Shown here piece after piece: positions 3,212 to 61,482 of a stretch of DNA of 64,000 bases. The translations under genes were made by a program, and so were the position numbers. The stretch's first letter is position 1. The number at the start of each line of letters is the position of its first letter. This stretch comes from Dehalococcoidia bacterium (GTDB lineage: Bacteria; Chloroflexota; Dehalococcoidia; Lucifugimonadales; UBA1127), in NCBI GenBank assembly GCA_034422455.1, contig DAOUJQ010000013.1, positions 17,632 through 81,631 of the forward strand, read 5' to 3'. The notes below the pieces were generated by a model. That model worked only from the letters and a program-made list of their open reading frames with translations. It made no database searches and was not told the origin of the DNA.

Positions 3212-3520
3212 ATGCACATCCTGTTTGTGACCATCAACATGAAGCCGGAGCACCGCGAGCGGTACCTGGAGGAGATGCTCCTGAACGCGAAGGGCGCTCG
3301 CGAGGACGAGCCGGGCTGCCTGCGCTTCGACGTGGTGCAGGACGCCAACGACCCGAACACCATCCACCTGTACGAGGTCTACACGGACGAGGCGGCGTTC
3401 CAGGCGCACACGTCGGCGCCCCACTTCCTGCGCATGCGGGAAACGACGGCCGACTGGCGCGCGGGGCAGTCGGTGCACATGGGGACGAATTTGGCGCCGT
3501 CGGATGCGGAGTGGGGGTAG
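3212..3520 (+). CDS. Antibiotic-biosynthesis-monooxygenase (ABM/YgiN-like) family protein
   Basis: ORF track, 102 aa. Contains CLRFDVVQDANDPNTIHLYEVYTDEAAFQAHTSAPHF, a ferredoxin-like ABM domain signature. Confidence 0.8.
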   Translation: MHILFVTINMKPEHRERYLEEMLLNAKGAREDEPGCLRFDVVQDANDPNTIHLYEVYTDEAAFQAHTSAPHFLRMRETTADWRAGQSVHMGTNLAPSDAEWG

Positions 3521-6234: not shown

Positions 6235-6309
6235 TGGAGCGGGCGATGGGAGTTGAACCCACGACAACCTGCTTGGAAGGCAGGGGCTCTGCCGCTGAGC
6301 TACGCCCGC
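6235..6309 (-). tRNA. tRNA-Gly (anticodon UCC), CCA encoded
   Basis: The reverse complement reads GCGGGCGTAGCTCAGCGGCAGAGCCCCTGCCTTCCAAGCAGGTTGTCGTGGGTTCAACTCCCATCGCCCGCTCCA. It has a cloverleaf, anticodon loop CTTCCAA and T-loop GGTTCAACTCC. Confidence 0.92.
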
Positions 6310-10070: not shown

Positions 10071-11342
10071 TCACGATTGAGGCTGGAAGCGGGCCTGCAG
10101 GTGCTCGACGTGGTGGCGCTCCTCCGTGCACTCCGCGACGGAGAGCTCCACCTGGATCGTCACGTGGTTGAGCCCGTGGCTGTACACGATCTTCCGGAGC
10201 TGCTTCAGTATGTCCTCCTGGCGTCCGGCCTGGGTGGGGCTCACGAAGACGTGGGCCGTGAAGGCGTCGTAGCCGGAGGTGATGGTCCAGGCGTGGACGT
10301 CGTGGACCAGCGTCACGCCCTGCACGTCCTCCATCTCGCTGCAGATGTTGTAGATGTCCACGGTCTCCGGCGTGCCCTCCAGCAATACCTTGAACACCCG
10401 CATGAACAGGCCCCAGGAGACCTTGAGGATGAGCAGGCCGATGAGGACGCTCATGATGGGGTCGGCGATGTACCAGGTCGAATTGTCGTCGGCGAACGCA
10501 ACGATCAGGATGCCGGAAATGATGACGCCGACGGAGCCCATGAGGTCCGCCATGACGTGCTGGAAGGCGCCCTCCACGTTGAGGCTCTCTCCCGCCGCCC
10601 GGTGCAGCACCCACGCCGCGGCGATGTTGATGATGAGGCCGATGACGCCGACGCTGAACATCAGCGGGCCCTCGACCTCCGGCGTGTCGGAGAAGCGGTG
10701 GTAGGCCTCCAGGAAGATCCACCCGGCGATGAGCCACAGGCTCACGGTGTTGGCGAGCGCGGCAAGCACCTCCGTCCGGTAGAAGCCGAAGGTCGAACCC
10801 GCCACGGCCGGCCGGTTGGCGATCCACATGGCGAACAGCGCCAGCGCGATGGAGGCGGCGTCGGTCAACATGTGCGCGGCGTCCGCCAGCAGCGCGAGGC
10901 TGCCGGAGAGGATGCCGCCGACGACCTCCACGAACATGAACCCGCCAATGAGGACGAGCGCCAAAATCAGGCTCTTCTTGCTGGCCCCGCGCAGGTCATG
11001 GGCATGGTCATGGCCGCCGTGCCCATGGTGATGGTGACCGTGGCCCGCGTGGGCGTGGTCATGCTCATCGTGGTCGTGGTCCTCATGCTCGTGGTCGTGG
11101 TCATGCTCGTGGTCGTGCTCCGTGTGGTCGTGCCCCGCGTGGTCGTGGGCATGGTCATGCTCATGGTCGTGGCCCGCGTGGTCGTGGGCATGGTCATGCT
11201 CGTGATCGTGCCCCGCGTGGTCGTGCCCTTCATGGTCGTGAGCATGGTCGTGGTCGTGCTCCGCGTGGTCATGGTCGTGGCCCGCGTGGTCGTGGGCATG
11301 GTCATGCTCGTGATCATGGTCATGCCGGTGTTCAGTCGTCAC
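10071..11342 (-). CDS. Cation diffusion facilitator (CzcD/ZitB-like) transporter with a very long His/Asp-rich N-terminus
   Basis: ORF track, 423 aa, GTG start with GGGAAGGGATGG upstream. The C-terminal ~300 aa has the CDF pattern ([16 protein letters not shown]...[13 protein letters not shown]...). The first ~115 aa are HDHxH repeats. Confidence 0.9.
11031..11340 (-). repeat. Coding tandem repeat (His/Asp tract of the CDF gene)
   Basis: The core GCGTGGTCGTGGGCATGGTCATGCT recurs at about 11137, 11176 (39-nt period, or 13 aa: [13 protein letters not shown]) and 11284. Confidence 0.7.
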
Positions 11343-11359
11343 GTCTATCCATCCCTTCC

Positions 11360-11400
11360 CACAGAAACGAAAGCCCGGCGATGCATTCTTGCGCCGGGCT
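11360..11400 (-). terminator. Hairpin plus T-run between the His-rich gene and the CDF gene (terminator/attenuator)
   Basis: AGCCCGGCG (11372-11380) pairs with CGCCGGGCT (11392-11400). On the minus strand the hairpin is followed by TTCGTTTCTG. Confidence 0.55.
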
Positions 11401-11447
11401 CCCGTTTATCTCCCGCTACGGACGTGTCTGCCTAGCTACGCCGAAGC

Positions 11448-11705
11448 CTAGACTGCGTGGGCAACGTGGTGCGGGTCGTCTGCCGCCGCGCAGTGCTCGC
11501 CGCCGTGCTCGTGGCAGTGGATGTGGCCGTGCTCGTCCATGTCCTCCGGGCCCATGATGGCCTGGCAGGCCGCGTCGCCGTGGATGTGGCAGTGGCCGGC
11601 GCCGTGCTCGTGGCAGTGGACGCCGTCATGGGCGTGGCAATGCTCGCCTGCATGCTCGTGACAGTGGTCGTCATGCTCGTGACTGTGGTCGTGCGCTTCC
11701 GCCAT
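11448..11705 (-). CDS. Small His/Cys-rich putative metal-binding protein (HCH repeats)
   Basis: ORF track, 85 aa with 25 His and 7 Cys by my count. The motif HCH(E/A/I)H occurs five times. RBS is AAGGAGGGG. It lies directly upstream of the CDF gene on the same strand. Confidence 0.7.
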   Translation of the reverse strand: MAEAHDHSHEHDDHCHEHAGEHCHAHDGVHCHEHGAGHCHIHGDAACQAIMGPEDMDEHGHIHCHEHGGEHCAAADDPHHVAHAV

Positions 11706-11787: not shown

Positions 11788-12095
11788 CCACTACGAGAAG
11801 ATGATACTAGGTCTAGTTATCGGGCCGGTCGCTCAAGGACGAGTATCAGTAATCCACCAGGTTGCACTCCAGCCACGAGCCGCAGGGGGTACTTGACGAA
11901 GGGGCCGGCATCCGCAATCCCCATGCTCCCCCGCAGGCGTCCAGGACCCGATTGCGGCGCCGGCTGATACCCATTCTCAGTAAATGGGCCGAAAAGAGCC
12001 GGAAGGCCTTGGAAACACGCCAAAAAACGGGCCTTCGCGGGCGTCAAAGGCCGTCGAAAACGGGCCGCCGATGTCCATCACCCAGGGCTCATGCC

Positions 12096-12101
12096 CTATA
12101 A
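12096..12101 (+). promoter_or_regulatory. Consensus -10 box (TATAAT) upstream of the selenoprotein gene
   Basis: TATAAT lies 33 nt upstream of ATG 12134. The -35 is weak. RBS GGAGGTGGGG lies at 12123-12132. Confidence 0.4.
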
Positions 12102-12133
12102 TGAGAGAAAGGACGACAACGGCGGAGGTGGGG

Positions 12134-13534
12134 ATGAAACAGAACAGGCCATCGTTCCGGGCCACGGCCCGATGGTCCGCGCTCCTGGCGCTTGCCGCCG
12201 CCCTCGGCGTGCTGGCGGCCGCCGCGTGCGGCCCAACCGACGACGCGACCGAGCCCTCGTCGTCACAGGAGGCCGCCGGGACCACGGAGACGTCCGGCAG
12301 CGACGCGACGACGGCCACGACGGACGCCGCCCCGAAACCGAGCGTCGAAGTCGGCCACGCCGTCGGGATGATGGCCCCGGACTTCACCGCGGAGACGGTG
12401 GCGGGCGACTCGATCACCCTGTCGGAGGTGACCGCGGGATCGCCGGTCCTCCTCTACTTCTTCACGACGTGGTGACCGACGTGCAATGCCGAGTTTCGGC
12501 ATCTGCGGTCGCTCTACCCCGGCTACCAGGACGACGTCGCCCTCATCGGCGTCGGCGTCGACCCAAGCGAGTCAGCCGACAAAATCTCGAGATGGGCCGA
12601 AAGGAACGGCTTTGATTGGCCCCTCACGGAAGCGGTCGGCAGCGCCCTGACCGACTACCGCGTGACGCAGCAATCCGCAGCCGTCGGCATCGACGCGGAC
12701 GGCATCATCGTGCTCCGCAAGAACGGCGGCCTCCAGGGCGAGGGCAAGTGGACGGAGTGGCTGGACACCCTGGGCGGTCCAAGGACTTCCGCGGAGCTGG
12801 AGGCTCCCTCCACCGCCGCCCAGGCGGCCCCGGCTCCCGTGGAAGCCGTCCCGACGCAGGCGCCAGCGCCGAGCCAGCCTTCGCCAACGGCCGCGCCCGC
12901 GCCCACAACAGCTCCGCCTCCTGCGGCTACGGCAGCTCCGGCCCCGACCACGGGCCCAGCGCCGACGGCAGCGCCTCCCCCGACGGCAATCCCAGCCCCG
13001 ACACAGGCGCCGCCTCCACCCCCAACGGCAACACCACGGCCCCGCCCGACATCGACGCCGACCCCCGCGCCAACGGCGACGCCGAACATTCCTGTCGGCC
13101 ACAACATCGGCCAGCGGGCGCCGGACTTCACCGTGACGGCGGTGAGCGGGGAGACGATCACGCTGTCCGAGGTTACGGCAACCGGCAAGCCCGTCCTCAT
13201 CTACTTCTTCGCGACATGGTGACCGACCTGCAATGCGGAGTTGCCGCATCTGCAGGGCCTCTACTCAGCCAATAGCGATGACGTGTTGATCGTGGGCATC
13301 AGCACGGACCCGGGCGACTCCGAGTCCCGCGTCCGAAGCCACGCCCGCAACAGGGGGATAACGTTCCCGATGGCGCCGCACGACCGCAGCATCGTGATCG
13401 ACTCCTACCGGGTGAGCGCGCAGTCCAGCGCCGTCGGCATCGACGCGAACGGGGTCATCCGGCTCCGCAAGGGCTACGGGCTGCAGGACGGGAACGAGTG
13501 GCGGAACTGGGTGGAGACGCTGACGGGCAGCTAG
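12134..13534 (+). CDS. Tandem two-domain TlpA/ResA-like thioredoxin-fold lipoprotein with two in-frame UGA (predicted selenocysteine) codons
   Basis: ORFs 11984-12475, 12662-13222 and 13241-13534 share one frame and are separated only by TGA at 12473 and 13220. The TGAs sit in YFFTTW-U-PTC and YFFATW-U-PTC, the redox CxxC position. A SECIS-like hairpin follows each. The signal peptide ends in a lipobox-like LAAAAC after ATG 12134. Confidence 0.75.
12482..12507 (+). promoter_or_regulatory. Bacterial SECIS-like hairpin 1
   Basis: Upper stem ATGCCGA (12486-12492) pairs with TCGGCAT (12496-12502) around loop GTT. Lower stem is TGCA/TGCG with a C bulge. The upper stem starts 10 nt after the TGA. 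Confidence 0.7.
13228..13255 (+). promoter_or_regulatory. Bacterial SECIS-like hairpin 2
   Basis: Upper stem ATGCGG (13233-13238) pairs with CCGCAT (13244-13249) around loop AGTTG. Lower stem is CTGCA/TGCAG with a C bulge. The spacer after the TGA is 10 nt. The stem differs from hairpin 1 by compensatory changes. Confidence 0.7.
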
Positions 13535-33592: not shown

Positions 33593-34264
33593 ATGTCAGA
33601 ATGGCTGGGCCGCGAGTACAACTACGCCGTGTGGCGGCCGTCGCAGGCCGAGTTCCAGCTGCTGAAGGAGATCCACCACGCGGGCGACGTCGCCCCCGAC
33701 TTCACGCTGCCCCTCCTCGACGGCGGCGAGCTGAGCCTCTCCGACCTGAAGGGCAAGCCCGTCGTCATCGAGTTCGGCTCCATCACCTGACCGCCATGCC
33801 AGGGGGAGTTCCCCCTCATGGACCAGCTGGCCCGCGACTACGCCGACCGCGCCCACTTTCTCTTCGTCTACGTGCGTGAGGCCCACCCGGACGACTTCCC
33901 GCAGTGGCCGGAGCACAAGACCATCAAGCAGAAGTTCGAGCAGGCGCGCCTCATGCGGGAGCGCCACGGCACGCCGCGCACCATCGTGGTCGACGACGTG
34001 GAGGGCACGGTGCACCGGGCGTGGAGCGGCATGCCCAACATGAGCTGGATCATCGACCACACCGGCCGCGTGTTCTTCAAAGCGGGGTGGACGGTGGAGT
34101 CCGACCTGCGCGCCGGACTGGAGGACTACTTCGACCTGAGGGAGCGCATGCGGGAGGGCTCGACGGCGCGCTACTACAAGGAGTACATCACCGCCACGCC
34201 GCGGATGCGCGAGGGCGGTGGCATGATGCGGCCGCAGCGCGAGCCCGCGGAGACCGGCGGGTAA
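33593..34264 (+). CDS. Deiodinase-like (DIO/Prx-like thioredoxin-fold) protein with one in-frame UGA (predicted selenocysteine)
   Basis: ORFs 33374-33790 and 33818-34264 share a frame across TGA 33788-33790. ATG 33593 follows AAGGAGGG. The motif VVIEFGSIT-U-PPC ... FLFVYVREAHPDD resembles the iodothyronine deiodinase active site FGSxTUPPF. A SECIS-like hairpin follows. Confidence 0.75.
33794..33821 (+). promoter_or_regulatory. Bacterial SECIS-like hairpin 3
   Basis: Upper stem AGGGGG (33801-33806) pairs with CCCCCT (33811-33816) around loop AGTT. Lower stem is CCATG/CATGG with a CC bulge. The spacer after the TGA is 10 nt. Confidence 0.7.
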
Positions 34265-41233: not shown

Positions 41234-42268
41234 TCAGGCCTGGTTGCCGGCCACGGCGGCCGCCAGCCGCTCGTAGGCGTCGCACTGCGCGAAGAACAGG
41301 TACGACGGCTGCGAGATCGTGATGCCGTTGCCGCCGAACCCGCGCAGGTGCTCCACCGCGTCCAGCGCCCGGTCCCTCCCTACGAGGATGGTCACGCTGT
41401 AGAGGTCGTCGCCGCTGGGCTCGAAGACCGGCGCGACCGTCGGGCCCTCCAGCCCGGACAGGTCCCGCCGCTCGAGGATCAGCGCCGCGACGGCCTCCGG
41501 CGACGGCCCGCGCACGTTGGCGGCCACGCGGCAGTAGTCCTGCGCCCGCAGGTACCCCTCGGCGCGCTCCAGCACGGCCTTCACCAGCGCCATCTTGCCG
41601 CCGGACTCCCGCAGCGCGCGCCGGTTCGCGATGAAGCACGACTGCGACGACAGGATCGTGCCGTCCAGCAGCGTCTTCAGCCGGTTCTCGCGCAGCGTCG
41701 TGCCCGTCGCCGTGATGTCCGCGATGAGGTCCGCCTGCCCGATGGCCGGGGCCACCTCCAGCGTCCCGCTCGACGGCACGAGCTTCAGGTAGTTGATGCC
41801 CCTGGCGAAGAGGAACTGCTGCGTCAGGCGCGGGTACTTCGTCGCCACCCGCAGCTCCCGCCCGCGCTCCCGGAACTCCAGCGCGATGTCCGCAAGGTCG
41901 GCGGTCGTCGTCACGTCGAGCCACGTCTCCGGCACCGCCAGCGCCAGCTCGCAGCCGCCGAACCGCAGGTCGTCCATCACCACGAGGGCGTCGCCGCCCT
42001 CCTGCGACGACTCCCTGACCCGGTCGAGACCCGTGATGCCGCAGTCCGCCGTGCCGTCCTCCACCTTGCCCGGTATGTCCGAGGCCCGTTGGAAGAGCGT
42101 GTTGACGCCCGGCACCCCCGCTAGGCTGCCGGTGTAGCCCCGGCTGCTGACGCGGCGGTTACTCATGCCGCAGGCGCGCAGGAACTCCAGCGTCGGCTCG
42201 TACAATGCGCCGTCGCTGGGAATCGCGAGCCGCAGCTCGGTTGCGCCGTTAGAGCCAGGTGCGTTCAC
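41234..42268 (-). CDS. hisG: ATP phosphoribosyltransferase, long form with C-terminal regulatory domain
   Basis: ORF track, 344 aa. Contains LRLAIPSDGALYEPTLEFL...DIPGKVEDGTADCGITGLD...ADITATGTTLRENRL, plus a HisG_C-like tail. Confidence 0.85.
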   Translation of the reverse strand: MNAPGSNGATELRLAIPSDGALYEPTLEFLRACGMSNRRVSSRGYTGSLAGVPGVNTLFQRASDIPGKVEDGTADCGITGLDRVRESSQEGGDALVVMDDLRFGGCELALAVPETWLDVTTTADLADIALEFRERGRELRVATKYPRLTQQFLFARGINYLKLVPSSGTLEVAPAIGQADLIADITATGTTLRENRLKTLLDGTILSSQSCFIANRRALRESGGKMALVKAVLERAEGYLRAQDYCRVAANVRGPSPEAVAALILERRDLSGLEGPTVAPVFEPSGDDLYSVTILVGRDRALDAVEHLRGFGGNGITISQPSYLFFAQCDAYERLAAAVAGNQA

Positions 42269-43688
42269 TTGCGCCGTCCTCGTCCACTGCCACTATCGCG
42301 CGGAAGCCCTGCCTGCGGGCCTCCTCCTCGTCCGCCTCGCCGTTGAGGGCCACGGCCGCCGCCTCGCCGCCGAGCCGCAGCGACGCCACTGTCTGCAGCG
42401 CGGCGGCCACGGCCTTCGCGTTGCGGGGCGCGACGAGCGTCATCCCCCGGTCCCGCGAGTCCGCCGCCAGCGCACCCGCTTCAGTCAGCGCCTCCACGAC
42501 GGGTTCCAGGCTGTACGCGAAGCCGAGCGCGGGGATGTCCTCCTCGCCGCCGAGCGCCTTGACGAGCCCGTCGTAGCGGCCGCCGCCGGCCAGCTTGACC
42601 GCGCCGCCCCAGACCTCGAAGAGCGGGCCGGTGTAGTAGGCGATGCCGCCCGCCATGCCCAGGTCGACGGACACCTCGACGTCCTTTGCCCCGTGCAGCG
42701 CCAGCGCCGCCAGGCACGCGTCCAGCGTGTCCAGCGCCGTGGCGTCGAGGCCGTAGGACACGGCCAGCGACCGTGCGCTTGCCAGCGTCTCGTCCGGCGC
42801 GCCGTTCAGCCGGGAGATCTCGCTCGTGAAGACCAGCGCGCGCTCGAGCTGCTCCGCGCTGTCCGACGCCTGCAGCTTGCGCGCCAGCCGCTCCAGGATC
42901 TCCGCGGGCGTCCGCGCGCCGAACGTCGCCGTTGCGGAGGCGTCCACCGCCGCCAGGTGCTGCGCCAGCGCCGTCATACCCTGCCGCTCGACCTGTGCAA
43001 GCAGCCCGAGCTCGTTCGCCCGTGACCGCACGGCGTCGAGCTGCTCCGGTCCCTCCCGCAGCTGCCCGATCGAGTCGAGCAGGAAGTGCGTTGCCCGCTC
43101 GGACAGCGAGAACTGCCGCAGCATGCCCAGTACCGCGCCGACATCACCGACGACCAGCCGAAGCGGCCGCAAGCCCAACGACGTCAGCGCGCCGCACGCC
43201 GTCGCCATCACCTCGGCCTCCGCCGCGGCGCCGCCCGCGCCGATGAGCTCCGCGCCCACCTGCGTGAACTGCCGGCCGTGGCCCGCCTCGCCAGCCGTGT
43301 AGCGGAACACGGGCCCGGCGTACTGCCACCGCACCGGCAGCGCCTGCGACTCCCGCTCCTGCACGAAGAGCCGGATCACCTGCGACGTGAACTCCGGCCG
43401 CAGGCTGACGCTGTGCCCGCCCGGCTCCACGAAGCTGTACATCTGCGACGCCAGCTCGCCGCCGGACTTGCGCAGGAAGATGTCGGTCGGCTCCAGCACG
43501 GGCATGTCGACCGTCCGGTAGCCGCACAGCGACAGCGCCGCCTGCAGCTCGCTCTGCACGCGCAGCTTCAGCCGGCTCTCTTCCTCGAAGAGCGCCCGCA
43601 TGCCCGCGAGGGGACTGTTGCCCTGCGCCGCCACGATGCCTCCGTCGCTTACCCGTAGCTGGGTTGCGCCGCCCAAAACGGGCGACAT
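42249..43688 (-). CDS. hisZ: HisZ-like ATP phosphoribosyltransferase regulatory subunit (HisRS paralog)
   Basis: ORF 42249-43796 trimmed to ATG 43688. It has a class-II aaRS-like core (GYRTVDMPVLEPTDIF...LRPEFTSQV...FRYTAGEAGHGRQFTQVGAELIG) but lacks the HisRS motif-2 ErPQ. Confidence 0.7.
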   Translation of the reverse strand: MSPVLGGATQLRVSDGGIVAAQGNSPLAGMRALFEEESRLKLRVQSELQAALSLCGYRTVDMPVLEPTDIFLRKSGGELASQMYSFVEPGGHSVSLRPEFTSQVIRLFVQERESQALPVRWQYAGPVFRYTAGEAGHGRQFTQVGAELIGAGGAAAEAEVMATACGALTSLGLRPLRLVVGDVGAVLGMLRQFSLSERATHFLLDSIGQLREGPEQLDAVRSRANELGLLAQVERQGMTALAQHLAAVDASATATFGARTPAEILERLARKLQASDSAEQLERALVFTSEISRLNGAPDETLASARSLAVSYGLDATALDTLDACLAALALHGAKDVEVSVDLGMAGGIAYYTGPLFEVWGGAVKLAGGGRYDGLVKALGGEEDIPALGFAYSLEPVVEALTEAGALAADSRDRGMTLVAPRNAKAVAAALQTVASLRLGGEAAAVALNGEADEEEARRQGFRAIVAVDEDGASERTWL

Positions 43689-43890
43689 ACGCAATCCATT
43701 GTAGCTTAGGCAGGGCAGACCCTCAAACGGGGCGGGCAGCGGAGAGAGCCGGGAGCTAGTCGTTGCTGATGGTGACGTCGCCGGTCCGGCCGTCATACGT
43801 CATGGTGAAGTCACGGAGGGACGATCTGCCGAGGATGGCCGCGTATGGCAGTCCTGAATCAGACAACCGCGCGCCGAATACACTTGGGAG

Positions 43891-44986: not shown

Positions 44987-45008
44987 TGCGCTGTTCTCAG
45001 GCGAAAGG

Positions 45009-45400
45009 GGCCGGTGGGCCTGTAAGCCGAGTTCTGTCCCCGGCCGCCATCAGTTTACGCCCCGTCGCCGGGACTTCCTCCTCATGCGCAGCCGGGTGGC
45101 GGCCATCCCTCTAGCCCTGCCGTTGCCGGCAGGGTCGTGCGGCCAACCCGGGGGCGAGCCGGGCGCTCATGGCCCCCCTATTTGGCCTTGCTCCGGGTGG
45201 GGCTTGCCCGCCGCCGTGTCACCACGGTCGGCCGGGAGCTCTTGCCTCCCGATTTCACCCTTACTCCGGCGGACCGGAGCGGTATGTTTCTGTGGCGCTT
45301 TCCGTCGGGTTGCCCCGCCTGGGCGTTACCCAGCACCCTGCCCGGAGGAGCTCGGACTTTCCTCTCCGACGAATCGGAGCGGCCACCCGGCCCACCGGCC
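45009..45400 (-). ncRNA. rnpB: RNase P RNA (bacterial type A)
   Basis: The minus strand contains GAGAGGAAAGTCCGAGCTCC (P4 5' half), GGAGTAAGGGTGAAA and ACAGAACTCGGCTTA (P4 3' half). P1 forms between GGCCGGTGGGCC (5' end, complement of 45389-45400) and GGCCCACCGGCC (3' end, complement of 45009-45020). Confidence 0.88.
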
Positions 45401-59107: not shown

Positions 59108-60184
59108 ATGGGCTTCGCCGTGCACGGAAACCACGGGGTGACCTACTGGGAGAAGGACCGCACCTTCAACGGCGTCACGCTCTACAGCACCTTCGGCAGC
59201 CCCAGGACCAGGCTCATCAACATGGACGGAGACGTGGTGCACGAGTGGACAGCCCCGGACCCCGCCAAGCCCTTCTTCGGCTACCTCCGGGACAACGGCA
59301 ACCTCCTCGTCCGGTGCTTCGACGGCTCGGAGCCGTACACCTACGGCGGCAACGGCGGCGTCCTCGTGGAGCTCGACTGGGACAGCAACGTCCTCTGGCG
59401 CTACGACAACCCGGTCATCCACCACGACCACATCGTCCTGCGCAACGGCAACATCATGGTCATCGGCTGGGAGCCCCTCACGTCGGAGGAGAAGGACCTG
59501 GTGCAGGGCGGCTACGAAGAGCTCGACGACGAGGGCAACCTCAAGGAGATGCTCTGCGACTTCCTCCTGGAGCTGACGCCGGACCGGCAGGTCGTCTGGG
59601 AGTGGCACGGGAAGGACAGGCTGGACCCCGCGCAGGACGTCATCTGCCACATGGACACCCGCAACGAGTGGACGCACTGCAACGCCGTCCTGGAGCTGCC
59701 GGACGGCAACATCTGCCTCAGCTTCCGGCAGACGAGCCAGCTCATCTTCATCGACAAGGCGACCGGCGATGTCTACTGGCGCTTCGGCCCCGGCGAGCTC
59801 TTCCACCAGCACAACCCCACGCTGCTGGAGAACGGCAACCTCCTGGTCTTCGACAACGGCGAGCACCGGCCGAGGCCGTCGGCAACCTCGCGCGTCGTGG
59901 AGCTTGACCCCGCCACGAAGGAGATCGTATGGGAGTACAAGGGCGACCCCACGGCCTCCTTCTACAGCACGCACATCAGCGGCGCCCAGCGCCTCCCCAA
60001 CGGCAACACCCTCATCTGCGAGGGCCGCCCCGGACGGTTCTTCGAAATAACGCCGGAAAAGGACCTCGTCTGGGAGTTCATGAACCCGGAGATCCTGGAG
60101 TTCCGCGAGGAGAAGTTCAACCGCGCCGTCTTCCGCGCCCGCCGCTACGCTGTCGACGGCCCGGAGGTGCGCGGCCGCGTATAG
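59108..60184 (+). CDS. Arylsulfotransferase (ASST)-like beta-propeller protein, paralog 1
   Basis: ORF track, 358 aa. It has repeated xNGNxLx blades (DNGNLLV, RNGNIMV, PDGNICL, ENGNLLVFDNG, PNGNTLI) and HHDH. There is no signal peptide. Confidence 0.7.
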   Translation: MGFAVHGNHGVTYWEKDRTFNGVTLYSTFGSPRTRLINMDGDVVHEWTAPDPAKPFFGYLRDNGNLLVRCFDGSEPYTYGGNGGVLVELDWDSNVLWRYDNPVIHHDHIVLRNGNIMVIGWEPLTSEEKDLVQGGYEELDDEGNLKEMLCDFLLELTPDRQVVWEWHGKDRLDPAQDVICHMDTRNEWTHCNAVLELPDGNICLSFRQTSQLIFIDKATGDVYWRFGPGELFHQHNPTLLENGNLLVFDNGEHRPRPSATSRVVELDPATKEIVWEYKGDPTASFYSTHISGAQRLPNGNTLICEGRPGRFFEITPEKDLVWEFMNPEILEFREEKFNRAVFRARRYAVDGPEVRGRV

Positions 60185-60285
60185 CCGCCCGACGCTCGCC
60201 CGTTCTTGACATTCGCATGGCCGAGGGCGCACCTTGCCGCCATTCCCCCCACCCGACCCGTGCAATACGGGGAAGGAGATCGCAC

Positions 60286-61359
60286 ATGGGCTTCCCGATC
60301 TACGGCCCGAAGGGCGTCACGCACTGGGACAGGGAGAACGCCTACCCCGGCGTCACGCTCTACACCACCATCGGCGGCGAGCGAGTGCATCTCGTCGACA
60401 TGGACGGGATGGTGGTCCACGAGTGGACGCCGCCGGAGGGGATGAAGCCCTTCTACGGCTTCCTCCGCGACAACGGCAACCTCCTCGTGCGCTGCCACAC
60501 CGGCACGGAGCCGTGGCAGATGGGCGGCTTCGCGGGCATCATGCTGGAGCAGGACTGGGACGGCAACGTCCTCTGGCGCTACGACAACCCGGTCATGCAC
60601 CATGACCACATCGTCCTGCGCAACGGCAACATCATGGTCATCGGCTGGGAGGTCATACCGCCGGAGGTGGCGGCAAGGGTGCAGGGCGGCGTGCTCTCGG
60701 CCCCGGACGGCGGTCCGGGCGAGATGCTTGGCGACTTCCTCCTGGAGCTCACGCCCGACAAGGAAGTCGTATGGGAATGGCACGGCCACGAGAAGCTGGA
60801 CCCGGCGCAGGAGGTCATCTGCCCCCGTGAGGCCCGCCACGAGTGGACCCACTGCAACGCCGTCATCGAGCTCGCCGACGGCAACATCTGCCTGAGCTTC
60901 CGGCAGACCAGCCAGGTCATCTTCATCGACAAGGCCACGGGCGACGTCACCTGGCGCTTCGGCCCCGGCGAGCTCGTCCACCAGCACAACCCCACGCAGC
61001 TCGCCAACGGCAACCTGCTCATCTTCGACAACGGCGAGCACCGCCCCGGCCCCGGCATGTACTCCCGCGTCGTGGAGGTCAACCCGGCCACGGAAGAGAT
61101 CGAGTGGCAGTTCCGCGGCGACCCGGCGCTCTCCTTCTTCAGCAACGGCATCAGCAGCGCCCAGCGTCTAGCCAACGGCAACACCTTCATCTGCGATGGC
61201 CGCACGGGCCGCCTCTTCGAGGTCACGATGGACGGCGACGTCGTCTGGGAGTTCATCAACCCGGAGGAGGCCCCCTGGCGCACCGAGAAGCGCAACCGCG
61301 CCGTCTTCCGCGCCATCCGCTACCCCGTCGACGGCCCGGAGGTGCGCGGCCGGGTGTAG
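60286..61359 (+). CDS. Arylsulfotransferase (ASST)-like beta-propeller protein, paralog 2
   Basis: This is the 3' part of ORF 59929-61359, from ATG 60286, which follows GGAAGGAGA. It is colinear with paralog 1. Confidence 0.7.
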   Translation: MGFPIYGPKGVTHWDRENAYPGVTLYTTIGGERVHLVDMDGMVVHEWTPPEGMKPFYGFLRDNGNLLVRCHTGTEPWQMGGFAGIMLEQDWDGNVLWRYDNPVMHHDHIVLRNGNIMVIGWEVIPPEVAARVQGGVLSAPDGGPGEMLGDFLLELTPDKEVVWEWHGHEKLDPAQEVICPREARHEWTHCNAVIELADGNICLSFRQTSQVIFIDKATGDVTWRFGPGELVHQHNPTQLANGNLLIFDNGEHRPGPGMYSRVVEVNPATEEIEWQFRGDPALSFFSNGISSAQRLANGNTFICDGRTGRLFEVTMDGDVVWEFINPEEAPWRTEKRNRAVFRAIRYPVDGPEVRGRV

Positions 61360-61482
61360 CTGATCCGACGCAGCAGCATCGCCTCCGTTCAACGGCCTTG
61401 ACACCCTTGGCAGGCTCGGCGAACCTAGCGCGCAATCCTTTGGCCAGGTTACGCGCACGATCGGCCCGAAAGGAGCGGACAC

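What the first reader, a model, noticed from the sequence alone, without database searches (positions are those of the whole stretch)
12134..13534. Tandem two-domain thioredoxin-fold lipoprotein that requires two in-frame UGA codons to be read as selenocysteine
Three ORF-track ORFs (11984-12475, 12662-13222, 13241-13534) lie in the same frame and are separated only by TGA at 12473-12475 and 13220-13222. I translated the gaps by hand and found no other stop. After the first TGA the frame reads PTCNAEFRHLRSLYPGYQDDVALIGVGVDPSESADKISRWAERNGFDWPLTEAVGSALTDYR, and after the second PTCNAELPHLQGLYS. Both TGAs sit exactly at the first redox position of a TlpA/ResA-type WCxxC motif: VLLYFFTTW-U-PTC and VLIYFFATW-U-PTC. 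The sequence on both sides of each TGA forms one continuous thioredoxin fold (APDFT...ITLSEV before, ...AAVGIDADGIIVLRK after). Each TGA is followed by a stem-loop at the same distance. The protein would be signal peptide/lipobox, Trx(U), Pro/Ala/Thr linker, Trx(U). Automatic callers would report three fragments. A bacterial protein with two Sec residues in duplicated redox domains would be unusual.
Basis: partly seen in the sequence, partly recalled or inferred. Interest (0 to 1): 0.82.

Follow-up and report, generated by a model that had tools for sequence, protein, structure and literature searches.

The report
Double-selenocysteine TlpA-like lipoprotein gene
One gene encodes an exported lipoprotein with two thioredoxin-like redox domains, each needing a UGA stop codon read as selenocysteine; the reading is well supported, but it is a two-domain version of an already known kind of bacterial selenoprotein.

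Summary
Window 12134-13534 (+) is one 466-codon frame broken only by TGA at 12473 and 13220. Each TGA sits at the first position of a W-U-P-T-C motif in a TlpA/ResA-type domain.

Selenocysteine is the best-supported reading of both codons:
- Both TGAs are kept in every orthologue found (at least 7 assemblies), always in one frame.
- Purifying selection is equal on both sides of each TGA.
- Cys homologues place Cys exactly at U.
- Each TGA is followed by a hairpin that fits the published bacterial SECIS model, shows compensatory changes, suppresses synonymous change, and is far more stable than synonymous recodings.
- A second selenoprotein gene (deiodinase-like, 33593-34264) lies in the same window.
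- TGA is an ordinary stop elsewhere in the window.

The gap: selA, selB, selC and selD are not in the window and could not be searched in the source genome.

Sec-containing TlpA-like UxxC proteins have been known since 2005, bacterial double and triple selenoproteins are catalogued, and a Cys-form tandem lipoprotein of this family exists. This is therefore a new architectural variant of moderate interest. Orthologues occur in a marine sponge metagenome.

The parts
12124..12130 (+). Shine-Dalgarno-like GGAGGTG, 3 nt before the ATG (GGAGG core 5 nt before it)
   Evidence: Read from the sequence. Inference only.
12134..13534 (+). Complete coding sequence: 466 codons including two Sec-UGA codons, ending in TAG
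   Evidence: There are no other in-frame stops. GC3 is 0.80-0.94 in every segment. Orthologues have the same structure.
12134..12229 (+). Signal peptide and lipobox (…LAAAA-C32-GP); Cys32 is the predicted lipidation site
   Evidence: Sequence. The L-x-A-[AVI]-A-C-G box is conserved in orthologues, and L002 has the canonical LSAC-G box. Processing is inferred, not shown.
12344..12778 (+). TlpA/ResA-like thioredoxin-fold domain 1 (residues 71-215), active site W-U114-P-T-C117
   Evidence: Pfam and NCBIfam hits in two stretches; alignment with Cys homologues.
12473..12475 (+). UGA 1, read as selenocysteine (residue 114)
   Evidence: Conserved as TGA in all orthologues; aligned to Cys in homologues; pN/pS is 0.31 before it and 0.35 after it.
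12482..12507 (+). bSECIS hairpin 1: UGCAAUGCCG-AGUUU-CGGCAU(C)UGCG
   Evidence: Compared with synonymous recodings, z = -3.7. pS falls to 0.19 in the 12 codons after UGA.
12779..13084 (+). Pro/Ala/Thr-rich linker, 102 residues
   Evidence: Its length varies among orthologues only in multiples of 3 nt (TGA1-TGA2 distance 690-762 nt).
13085..13531 (+). TlpA/ResA-like thioredoxin-fold domain 2 (residues 318-466), active site W-U363-P-T-C366
   Evidence: Pfam AhpC-TSA matches residues 325-443 to profile 1-122 of 124. PDB best hits are ResA, DsbE/CcmG and StoA.
13220..13222 (+). UGA 2, read as selenocysteine (residue 363)
13227..13256 (+). bSECIS hairpin 2: CCUGCAAUGCGG-AGUUG-CCGCAU(C)UGCAGG
   Evidence: Compared with synonymous recodings, z = -3.4. 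pS is 0.10 in the 12 codons after UGA.
13532..13534 (+). True terminator, TAG
   Evidence: It is TAG in all frame-intact orthologues.

Best explanation
This is a single gene for an extracytoplasmic, probably lipid-anchored protein. It carries two TlpA/ResA-type thiol:disulfide oxidoreductase domains joined by a Pro/Ala/Thr linker, each with a U-P-T-C active site. Each UGA is recoded as selenocysteine by the standard bacterial route. A hairpin starting 6-9 nt after the UGA (apical loop AGUUU or AGUUG, 16 nt from the UGA) would recruit SelB-GTP-Sec-tRNASec to the ribosome, so the mRNA needs two independent recoding events. Each mature domain would act as a selenol/thiol redox pair (a selenenylsulfide between U and C) that reduces or isomerises disulfides on the outer face of the membrane. 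Sec would be the more nucleophilic attacking residue and less prone to irreversible over-oxidation. Shown here: one continuous conserved reading frame, the Sec/Cys pairing, conserved TGA, and a selected, covarying hairpin. Inferred: SelB/tRNA-Sec dependence, lipidation, redox chemistry, the electron donor (CcdA/DsbD-type) and the substrates.
For: One frame with only two TGAs. A Trx-fold HMM match runs across the TGA, and ResA, DsbE and StoA are the closest solved structures. TGA is kept at both sites in L001, L003, L004, L052, L053, L054/55, L056/57, L060 and L061. The TGA1-TGA2 distance is a multiple of 3 in all six frame-intact assemblies, and the final stop is TAG. pN/pS is 0.31-0.37 on both sides of each TGA, including the 33 codons after U1 that have no start codon. 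Cys homologues P0047, P0051, P0052, P0054, P0055, L062, P0167 and P0178 put Cys at U. On the hairpin: 96.7% of cells are paired in 15 distinct sequences, 4 of 10 pairs show compensatory change, and 0 of 500 shuffles reach the score. Synonymous divergence drops from 0.43-0.60 to 0.19 and 0.10. Against synonymous recodings, z = -3.7 and -3.4, versus a control sd of 1.06. The hairpin meets the bSECIS constraints quoted in PMC13188914 (loop 3-9 nt with G[G|U] in the first positions, stem of at least 4 bp, 16-37 nt spacing, MFE at or below -7.5). A second Sec gene in the window (deiodinase-like, TGA at 33788) has the same loop type and has Cys homologues. TGA terminates 8 of 41 other window genes.
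Against: No selA, selB, selD or tRNA-Sec gene was found in the 64 kb window or in 10 kb beyond its end. The rest of the source genome could not be searched. Rfam has no matching SECIS model. There are no expression or selenium-incorporation data. The covariation rests on few independent events (the domain 1 / domain 2 swap, L056, and the L002 lineage). The structure string was derived from these same sequences.
Confidence: 0.88

Rival explanations
1. Both UGA codons are recoded, but not as selenocysteine. For example, Cys could be delivered by a tRNA-Sec-like tRNA-Cys through the SelB/SECIS route, or near-cognate read-through could insert Trp or Cys.
For: The computational signals (conserved TGA, hairpin, Cys homologues) do not identify which amino acid is inserted. 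The Sec machinery was not seen. That SECIS-dependent Cys insertion has been reported in some bacteria is my own recollection and was not checked here.
Against: Three independent UGA sites in two unrelated gene families in one window all sit at the catalytic Cys position, and each has a SelB-type hairpin. This is the classic selenoprotein signature. If plain Cys were inserted, there would be no reason to maintain TGA plus a hairpin instead of TGC across all orthologues.
Confidence: 0.06
2. The locus is three separate short genes, or a decaying pseudogene, and the TGAs are real stops, as automatic gene callers annotate it.
For: Public gene calls split every orthologue into three products. TGA is a normal stop for other genes in the window.
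Against: The fragments would be a signal peptide with half a Trx fold, a leaderless chimera made of the second half of domain 1 and the first half of domain 2, and another half fold. The peptide just after each TGA is conserved with pN/pS 0.14-0.35 although no start codon is available. The stop is always TGA, always at the catalytic position and always in frame, in at least 7 assemblies. Linker indels are all multiples of 3.
Confidence: 0.02
3. UGA is globally reassigned in this organism (to Trp or Gly), so these are ordinary sense codons.
For: TGA is under-used as a stop (8 of 41 genes; TAG 28) in a 68% GC genome.
Against: Eight well-defined genes end at TGA, with no coding signal beyond it or with an ATGA overlap to the next gene. 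Only 3 in-frame coding TGAs occur in 64 kb, all at Cys positions of redox motifs and all with hairpins. W already precedes U in the motif, and the homologues have Cys at that position, not Trp or Gly.
Confidence: 0.01

Closest known systems
Sec-containing 'thiol-disulfide isomerase-like' / TlpA-like / Redoxin-family selenoproteins (cd02966 or PF08534, UxxC). First reported from the Sargasso Sea (PMC1088965) and listed in Table 1 of PMC13188914.
   Same: TlpA-like thioredoxin fold; Sec as the first residue of the UxxC redox motif; a bSECIS hairpin directly after the UGA; widespread Cys homologues; marine metagenomic origin.
   Different: The catalogued families have one Sec per protein. This gene has two complete domain + UGA + SECIS modules fused by a PAT-rich linker behind a lipoprotein signal. 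Direct sequence comparison with the catalogued representatives (for example MGB1650493.1, HEU0032618.1) was not possible.
ResA / TlpA / CcmG(DsbE) / StoA: membrane-anchored Cys-Cys thiol:disulfide oxidoreductases
   Same: Best NCBIfam hit is ResA (E 1.6e-35), and the best PDB hits are 4nmu, 1st9 and 3c71. Shared W-C-x-x-C motif position, extracytoplasmic anchoring and domain size.
   Different: Scores are below the curated ResA, DsbE and TlpA cut-offs (122.6 versus 170 bits, and so on). Sec replaces the first Cys. The position aligned to the cis-Pro of ResA is Ser. The protein has two domains. No cytochrome c maturation or Sco genes are nearby.
P0167: a Cys-form tandem two-domain lipoprotein of the same subfamily, from public metagenome or genome data
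   Same: Lipobox, two TlpA-like domains (WCPTC and WCPVC), the same Q-[SA]-[ST]-x-V-G motif instead of cis-Pro, and 33-34% identity to both window domains.
   Different: Cys instead of Sec in both domains; a short linker; a low-GC organism.
L002 locus: two adjacent single-domain Sec TlpA-like genes
   Same: F/T-U-x-x-C motif, and a hairpin with the same AGUUG loop but a different stem sequence (GCUCCG/CGGAGC). The downstream gene carries a canonical lipobox (LSAC-G).
   Different: The two domains are separate genes rather than one fused ORF. Identity to the window domains is 31-39%.
Bacterial double and triple selenoproteins (MbdU, MduS, arsenite methyltransferase/AhpD fusions and others; Haft & Tolstoy 2025 as cited in PMC13188914)
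   Same: More than one UGA-Sec in a single bacterial ORF.
   Different: Those are fusions of unlike domains or UxxU/CU motifs. This one is a tandem repeat of the same Sec domain together with its own SECIS.

Membership tests
Bacterial selenoprotein gene (UGA-Sec recoding) | In-frame UGA with protein-coding conservation on both sides | tested here: met
   pN/pS is 0.31-0.37 on both flanks of both UGAs. There are no other stops.
Bacterial selenoprotein gene (UGA-Sec recoding) | At least two Cys-containing homologues with Cys aligned to the UGA (criterion of PMC1088965) | tested here: met
   P0047, P0051, P0052, P0054, P0055 and L062; P0167 and P0178.
Bacterial selenoprotein gene (UGA-Sec recoding) | bSECIS model: apical loop of 3-9 nt with G in its first two positions (G[G|U]), upper stem of 4-16 bp, 16-37 nt between UGA and loop, MFE at or below -7.5 kcal/mol (PMC13188914, Fig. 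2 legend) | tested here: met
   Loops are A-G-U-U-U and A-G-U-U-G. The upper stem is 6 bp, with 4 more bp after a 1-nt bulge. Spacing is 16 nt. MFE is -13.1 and -19.6 kcal/mol for 34 nt. Covariation is and the recoding test.
Bacterial selenoprotein gene (UGA-Sec recoding) | UGA conserved in orthologues | tested here: met
   Every site seen has TGA: 15 distinct hairpin sequences from 13 loci including the window.
Bacterial selenoprotein gene (UGA-Sec recoding) | selA, selB, selC (tRNA-Sec) and selD present in the same genome | not testable with these tools
   They are absent from the window and from 10 kb beyond its end. The remainder of the 167,629-bp contig and the rest of the genome could not be reached. 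Indirect support comes from a second Sec gene in the window.
Bacterial selenoprotein gene (UGA-Sec recoding) | Selenium actually incorporated at the UGA positions | not testable with these tools
   This needs 75Se labelling or mass spectrometry.
TlpA/ResA/DsbE-like thiol:disulfide oxidoreductases (Pfam AhpC-TSA, Redoxin, Thioredoxin_8; cd02966 type) | Thioredoxin-fold domain matched above the curated Pfam thresholds | tested here: met
   AhpC-TSA 136 bits (cut-off 26), Redoxin 100.4 (26.6), Thioredoxin_8 58.7 (27), each in two stretches.
TlpA/ResA/DsbE-like thiol:disulfide oxidoreductases (Pfam AhpC-TSA, Redoxin, Thioredoxin_8; cd02966 type) | W-C-x-x-C redox motif at the conserved position | tested here: met
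   W-U-P-T-C appears twice, and U aligns to the first Cys.
TlpA/ResA/DsbE-like thiol:disulfide oxidoreductases (Pfam AhpC-TSA, Redoxin, Thioredoxin_8; cd02966 type) | Named equivalogs (ResA, DsbE/CcmG, TlpA, StoA) scored above the NCBIfam cut-off | tested here: not met
   ResA 122.6 versus 170; StoA 86.6 versus 210; DsbE 77.3 versus 123; TlpA 48.6 versus 230. The protein is therefore a superfamily member but not any of these named orthologue groups.
TlpA/ResA/DsbE-like thiol:disulfide oxidoreductases (Pfam AhpC-TSA, Redoxin, Thioredoxin_8; cd02966 type) | cis-Pro loop opposite the active site (typical of the fold, not part of the HMM definition) | tested here: inconclusive
   By sequence alignment, the ResA 'LPT' Pro aligns to Ser in 'QSSAVG' and 'QQSAAVG'. 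The same is true of the Cys homologues of this subfamily.
Catalogued 'thiol-disulfide isomerase-like' selenoprotein family (PMC1088965; PMC13188914 Table 1) | UxxC motif in a TlpA-like domain with one Sec per protein | tested here: not met
   The motif and fold criteria are met, but this protein has two Sec residues in two domains. It is therefore filed as an architectural variant.
Catalogued 'thiol-disulfide isomerase-like' selenoprotein family (PMC1088965; PMC13188914 Table 1) | Sequence similarity to the family's representative sequences | not testable with these tools
   The representative accessions (MGB1650493.1, HEU0032618.1) could not be retrieved.
Bacterial lipoprotein | N-terminal signal peptide ending in a lipobox Cys | tested here: met
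   The signal reads MKQNRPSFRATARWSALLALAAALGVLAAAA-C32-G. The box is conserved in orthologues and fits the PROSITE-type lipobox pattern as I recall it. Lgt/Lsp processing has not been shown.

The most novel reading that the evidence does not exclude
The double-Sec lipoprotein may not be a ResA-like housekeeping reductase. It could instead be a lineage-specific, selenium-dependent extracytoplasmic redox module that works with the invariably adjacent, divergently oriented metal-handling genes (a His-rich CDF efflux pump and a small His/Cys-rich protein). The long PAT linker would place the second Sec domain far from the membrane. It would also be the first documented bacterial selenoprotein built by tandem duplication of a whole domain + UGA + SECIS unit.
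Probability: 0.12. Interest if true: 0.6.

Novelty: new variant of a known kind. Interest (0 to 1): 0.38.

Why it matters
Public annotations split this gene into three meaningless fragments in every genome where it occurs. Recognising it restores a probable cell-surface redox enzyme to a lineage found in marine sponge metagenomes. It gives a clean natural example of two SECIS-dependent recoding events in one bacterial mRNA. The two SECIS copies have diverged by compensatory changes, in which the third position of an Ala codon pairs with the second position of an Arg/Pro codon. This is useful for studying how RNA structure and protein coding constrain each other. It also adds a tandem-domain architecture to the catalogue of prokaryotic selenoproteins. 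It does not change the understanding of Sec decoding.

Tried and rejected
- **Whole-protein homologue search.** It was swamped by the low-complexity linker and gave only 8 hits. The domain-only search worked.
- **Genome-contig scan with the full protein.** The peptide patterns chosen, including IYFFATWC, found only distant Cys homologues from unrelated taxa.
- **Metagenome-contig scans.** The 6-sequence alignment returned only 3 loci.
- **Rfam.** Neither the gathering thresholds nor permissive E-values gave a SECIS family hit.
- **Dinucleotide-shuffle z-scores on 68-nt stretches.** These were weak (-1.0) because of the 68% GC background. They were replaced by a synonymous-recoding test.
- **Sec machinery.** Pfam scans of 40 window genes, tRNA scans and a 10-kb extension past the window end found no sel genes.
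- **Literature search for the sample accessions.** Nothing was found.
- **Fourth TGA candidate at 43023 (+).** It was rejected as antisense to the HisS-like gene at 42249-43796 (-), with borderline GC3.
- **P0166.** This is a 1156-aa repeat protein with 13 matched stretches and looks like a spurious hit.
Full report
**Observation.**
Translating 12134-13534 gives 466 codons with only two internal stops. Both are TGA, at 12473-12475 (residue 114) and 13220-13222 (residue 363), and the terminator is TAG.

The sequence reads as follows:
- a signal peptide with a lipobox (…LAAAAC32G);
- an acidic, Thr-rich spacer;
- domain 1, with VLLYFFTTW-U-PTCNAEFRHLR;
- a 102-residue linker (P35, A28, T19);
- domain 2, with VLIYFFATW-U-PTCNAELPHLQ.

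With U written as C, Pfam finds AhpC-TSA (E 8e-40), Redoxin and Thioredoxin_8, each in two stretches. The profile match runs uninterrupted across the second TGA. NCBIfam's best hit is ResA (E 1.6e-35, below its curated cut-off). The closest solved structures are ResA, DsbE/CcmG and StoA. GC3 stays at 0.80-0.94 in all five segments of the frame. A GGAGGTG sits just upstream of ATG 12134.

**Is it more than chance?**
I scanned both strands of the window for TGA codons flanked by 40 stop-free codons of coding-type composition on each side. The scan returned only the two sites here, a third at 33788, and one weak antisense artefact at 43023. The same scan over about 100 kb of related loci returned only the orthologous sites.

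**Orthologues.**
A domain-only protein search returned dozens of clusters that are pieces of the same gene:
- N-terminal pieces ending …YFF[TA]TW;
- middle pieces of 190-230 aa, starting at an internal start codon and ending …YFFATW;
- 97-aa C-terminal pieces starting MPHLQ.

I fetched the DNA for eleven orthologous loci, plus the related locus L002. In every orthologue both positions are TGA. In all six frame-intact assemblies the two TGAs are in one frame, with spacing of 690-762 nt that is always a multiple of 3, and the gene ends in TAG.

L001 has a 1-nt insertion between the domains. It is a 6x long-read contig, so I take this as an assembly error.

Synteny is conserved: Rieske/LigXa, a CDF efflux pump, a small His/Cys-rich ORF, this gene, then PrpD. 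Two relatives are circular contigs of 2.59 and 2.73 Mb. Two short orthologous contigs belong to MKWU01, the Illumina assembly of the sponge Aplysina aerophoba metagenome (PMC5649159).

**Is the frame translated through the TGAs?**
A codon alignment of five distinct orthologues gives pN/pS of 0.31-0.37 in every structured segment on both sides of both TGAs. This includes the 33 codons after U1, where no start codon is available. The three-gene reading would yield half-folds, one of them a leaderless chimera of two half-domains.

**Sec/Cys pairing.**
Aligned with Cys homologues, the U of both window domains and of both L002 genes falls exactly on the first Cys of W-C-x-x-C. The homologues used were P0047 (39% identity, 95% coverage), P0051, P0052, P0054, P0055 and L062.

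An exhaustive HMMER search with the post-U2 segment added two kinds of hit:
- more short fragments truncated at the U position, from other lineages;
- Cys forms, including P0167, a Cys-form lipoprotein with two tandem domains (WCPTC and WCPVC) that is 33-34% identical to both window domains.

**SECIS.**
Each TGA is followed in the same register by a hairpin with these features:
- stem at +10 to +19 paired with +25 to +35;
- a 1-nt bulge at +31;
- a 5-nt loop, A-G-U-U-U or A-G-U-U-G, at +20 to +24.

This meets the published bSECIS constraints (PMC13188914, Fig. 2 legend): a loop of 3-9 nt with G[G|U] in the first positions, an upper stem of at least 4 bp, 16-37 nt of spacing (16 here), and MFE at or below -7.5 (here -13.1 and -19.6).

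Across 15 distinct sequences, 96.7% of cells pair. Four of 10 pairs show changes on both sides. No shuffle out of 500 reaches the covariation score, and slid registers collapse to 18-57% pairing.

The clearest case is pair 18-26. The third base of the Ala codon (GCC versus GCG) covaries with the second base of the following Arg/Pro codon (CGG versus CCG). This separates domain 1 from domain 2, and it reverses again in L056. The L002 genes keep the AGUUG loop on a completely different stem (GCUCCG/CGGAGC).

Synonymous divergence falls from 0.43-0.60 to 0.19 and 0.10 in the 12 codons after each UGA. The native hairpins are far more stable than synonymous recodings of the same peptides drawn from the window's own codon usage: z = -3.7 and -3.4, against 300 control positions with mean 0, sd 1.06 and minimum -2.8. 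Rfam has no matching family.

**Does the organism use Sec?**
No selA, selB, selD or tRNA-Sec lies in the window or in 10 kb past its end. I could not search the rest of the genome, and this is the main gap. The support is indirect:
- The window holds a second selenoprotein gene at 33593-34264 (+). Its motif is FGSIT-U-PPC, it matches the Pfam deiodinase family, it has the hairpin GGGGG-AGUU-CCCCC 16 nt after the UGA (z = -2.5), many homologues are truncated at the same point, and Cys forms exist, such as P0080 with FGSLTCPNC.
- L002 carries two single-domain Sec TlpA-like genes and a UGSC selenoprotein within 8.8 kb.
- TGA is an ordinary terminator for 8 of 41 window genes, so the codon is not globally reassigned.

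**Mechanism.**
- *Shown:* one conserved ORF with two UGA + hairpin modules, each at the catalytic position of a TlpA-like fold.
- *Inferred from established Sec biology (summarised in PMC13188914):* SelB-GTP-Sec-tRNASec binds each hairpin and delivers Sec at the UGA, so a full-length product needs two recoding events.
- *Inferred from family knowledge:* after export and lipidation, the two U-x-x-C domains act as selenol/thiol reductases or isomerases outside the membrane, presumably re-reduced by a CcdA/DsbD-type protein. The substrates are unknown.

The subfamily, including its Cys members, has Ser or Ala where ResA has its cis-Pro. It may therefore differ functionally from ResA and TlpA. A structure model could not be made.

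**Comparison with what is known.**
Sec-containing 'thiol-disulfide isomerase-like' proteins with UxxC were reported from the Sargasso Sea in 2005 (PMC1088965). The 2026 review lists the following (PMC13188914):
- that family (cd02966, 1 Sec);
- a Redoxin-family UxxC selenoprotein;
- a Prx-like UxxC/UxxU family (1-2 Sec);
- deiodinase-like proteins;
- about ten double or triple selenoproteins.

No entry describes a tandem TlpA-like protein with two Sec residues, and full-text searches found none. A Cys-form tandem lipoprotein of this subfamily does exist (P0167).

**Verdict.**
The gene is very probably a genuine double-selenocysteine protein that public annotation splits into three fragments. 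It is a new architectural variant of a known selenoprotein kind rather than something categorically new, so interest is moderate.

Taxonomy is unresolved. The features are 68% GC, sample labels that point to marine host-associated metagenomes, and a weak hint of Chloroflexota from two NCBI names of distant deiodinase-like homologues.

Noticed in passing
window 33593-34264 (+), TGA at 33788-33790: This is a second selenoprotein gene: a deiodinase-like thioredoxin-fold protein with the motif FGSIT-U-PPC. The hairpin GGGGG-AGUU-CCCCC starts 16 nt after the UGA, and the gene ends in TAA. Gene callers keep only the 148-aa C-terminal part. Many homologues are truncated at the same point, and Cys forms exist (P0080, P0151, P0158).
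   Followed up: yes
window, 41 predicted genes: Stop-codon usage is TAG 28, TGA 8 and TAA 5. TAG dominance is unusual for a 68% GC genome, where TGA normally prevails. Both selenoprotein genes avoid TGA as their terminator.
   Followed up: partly
window 10071-11705 (-): A CDF cation-efflux gene with a very long His/Asp-rich N-terminus (10071-11342) and a small His/Cys-rich ORF (11448-11705) lie divergently upstream. This arrangement is conserved in all orthologous loci, which suggests a possible functional link to metal handling.
   Followed up: partly
window 12674-12694 and 13424-13444 (QQSAAVG / QSSAVG): The position that aligns to the conserved cis-Pro of ResA is Ser in both domains. It is Ser or Ala in all members of this subfamily, including the Cys forms (P0047, P0167, P0178).
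   Followed up: partly
L002 2286-4286 (+) and 4768-5334 (-): A more distant relative has two adjacent single-domain Sec TlpA-like genes (TGA at 3372 and 3972); the downstream one has its own canonical lipobox. It also has a UGSC selenoprotein split by TGA (AIGS-U-GSCSAC). That makes three Sec genes in 8.8 kb.
   Followed up: partly
L001 about 10598: A 1-nt insertion breaks the frame between the two domains in a 6x long-read contig. The database proteins P0001 and P0002 reflect this shift. It is probably an assembly error rather than a pseudogene.
   Followed up: partly
L054 5539-5631 (+): ARAGORN calls a 93-nt 'tRNA-Cys (GCA)' antisense to the PrpD gene. It is not predicted in the other orthologous loci and is probably a false positive. 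Its length is like that of tRNA-Sec, so it is worth a second look.
   Followed up: no
window 30001-32000: GC drops locally to 0.575 against about 0.68 elsewhere, around the region upstream of the LytB/IspH gene (31301-32209).
   Followed up: no
window 45007-45398 (-) and 6235-6309 (-): The window contains a bacterial class A RNase P RNA (254 bits) and a tRNA-Gly(UCC). The tRNA-Gly is also found in three related loci (L001, L003, L004).
   Followed up: no
L063 15153-21071 (about 4-10 kb beyond the window end): A block of five unannotated genes, one with a weak AAA_16 hit, lies next to an N6/N4 DNA methyltransferase. It looks like a defence island.
   Followed up: no
window 59108-62553 (+): Three consecutive arylsulfotransferase-like (ASST) paralogues sit between peptide/solute ABC transporter components.
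   Followed up: no
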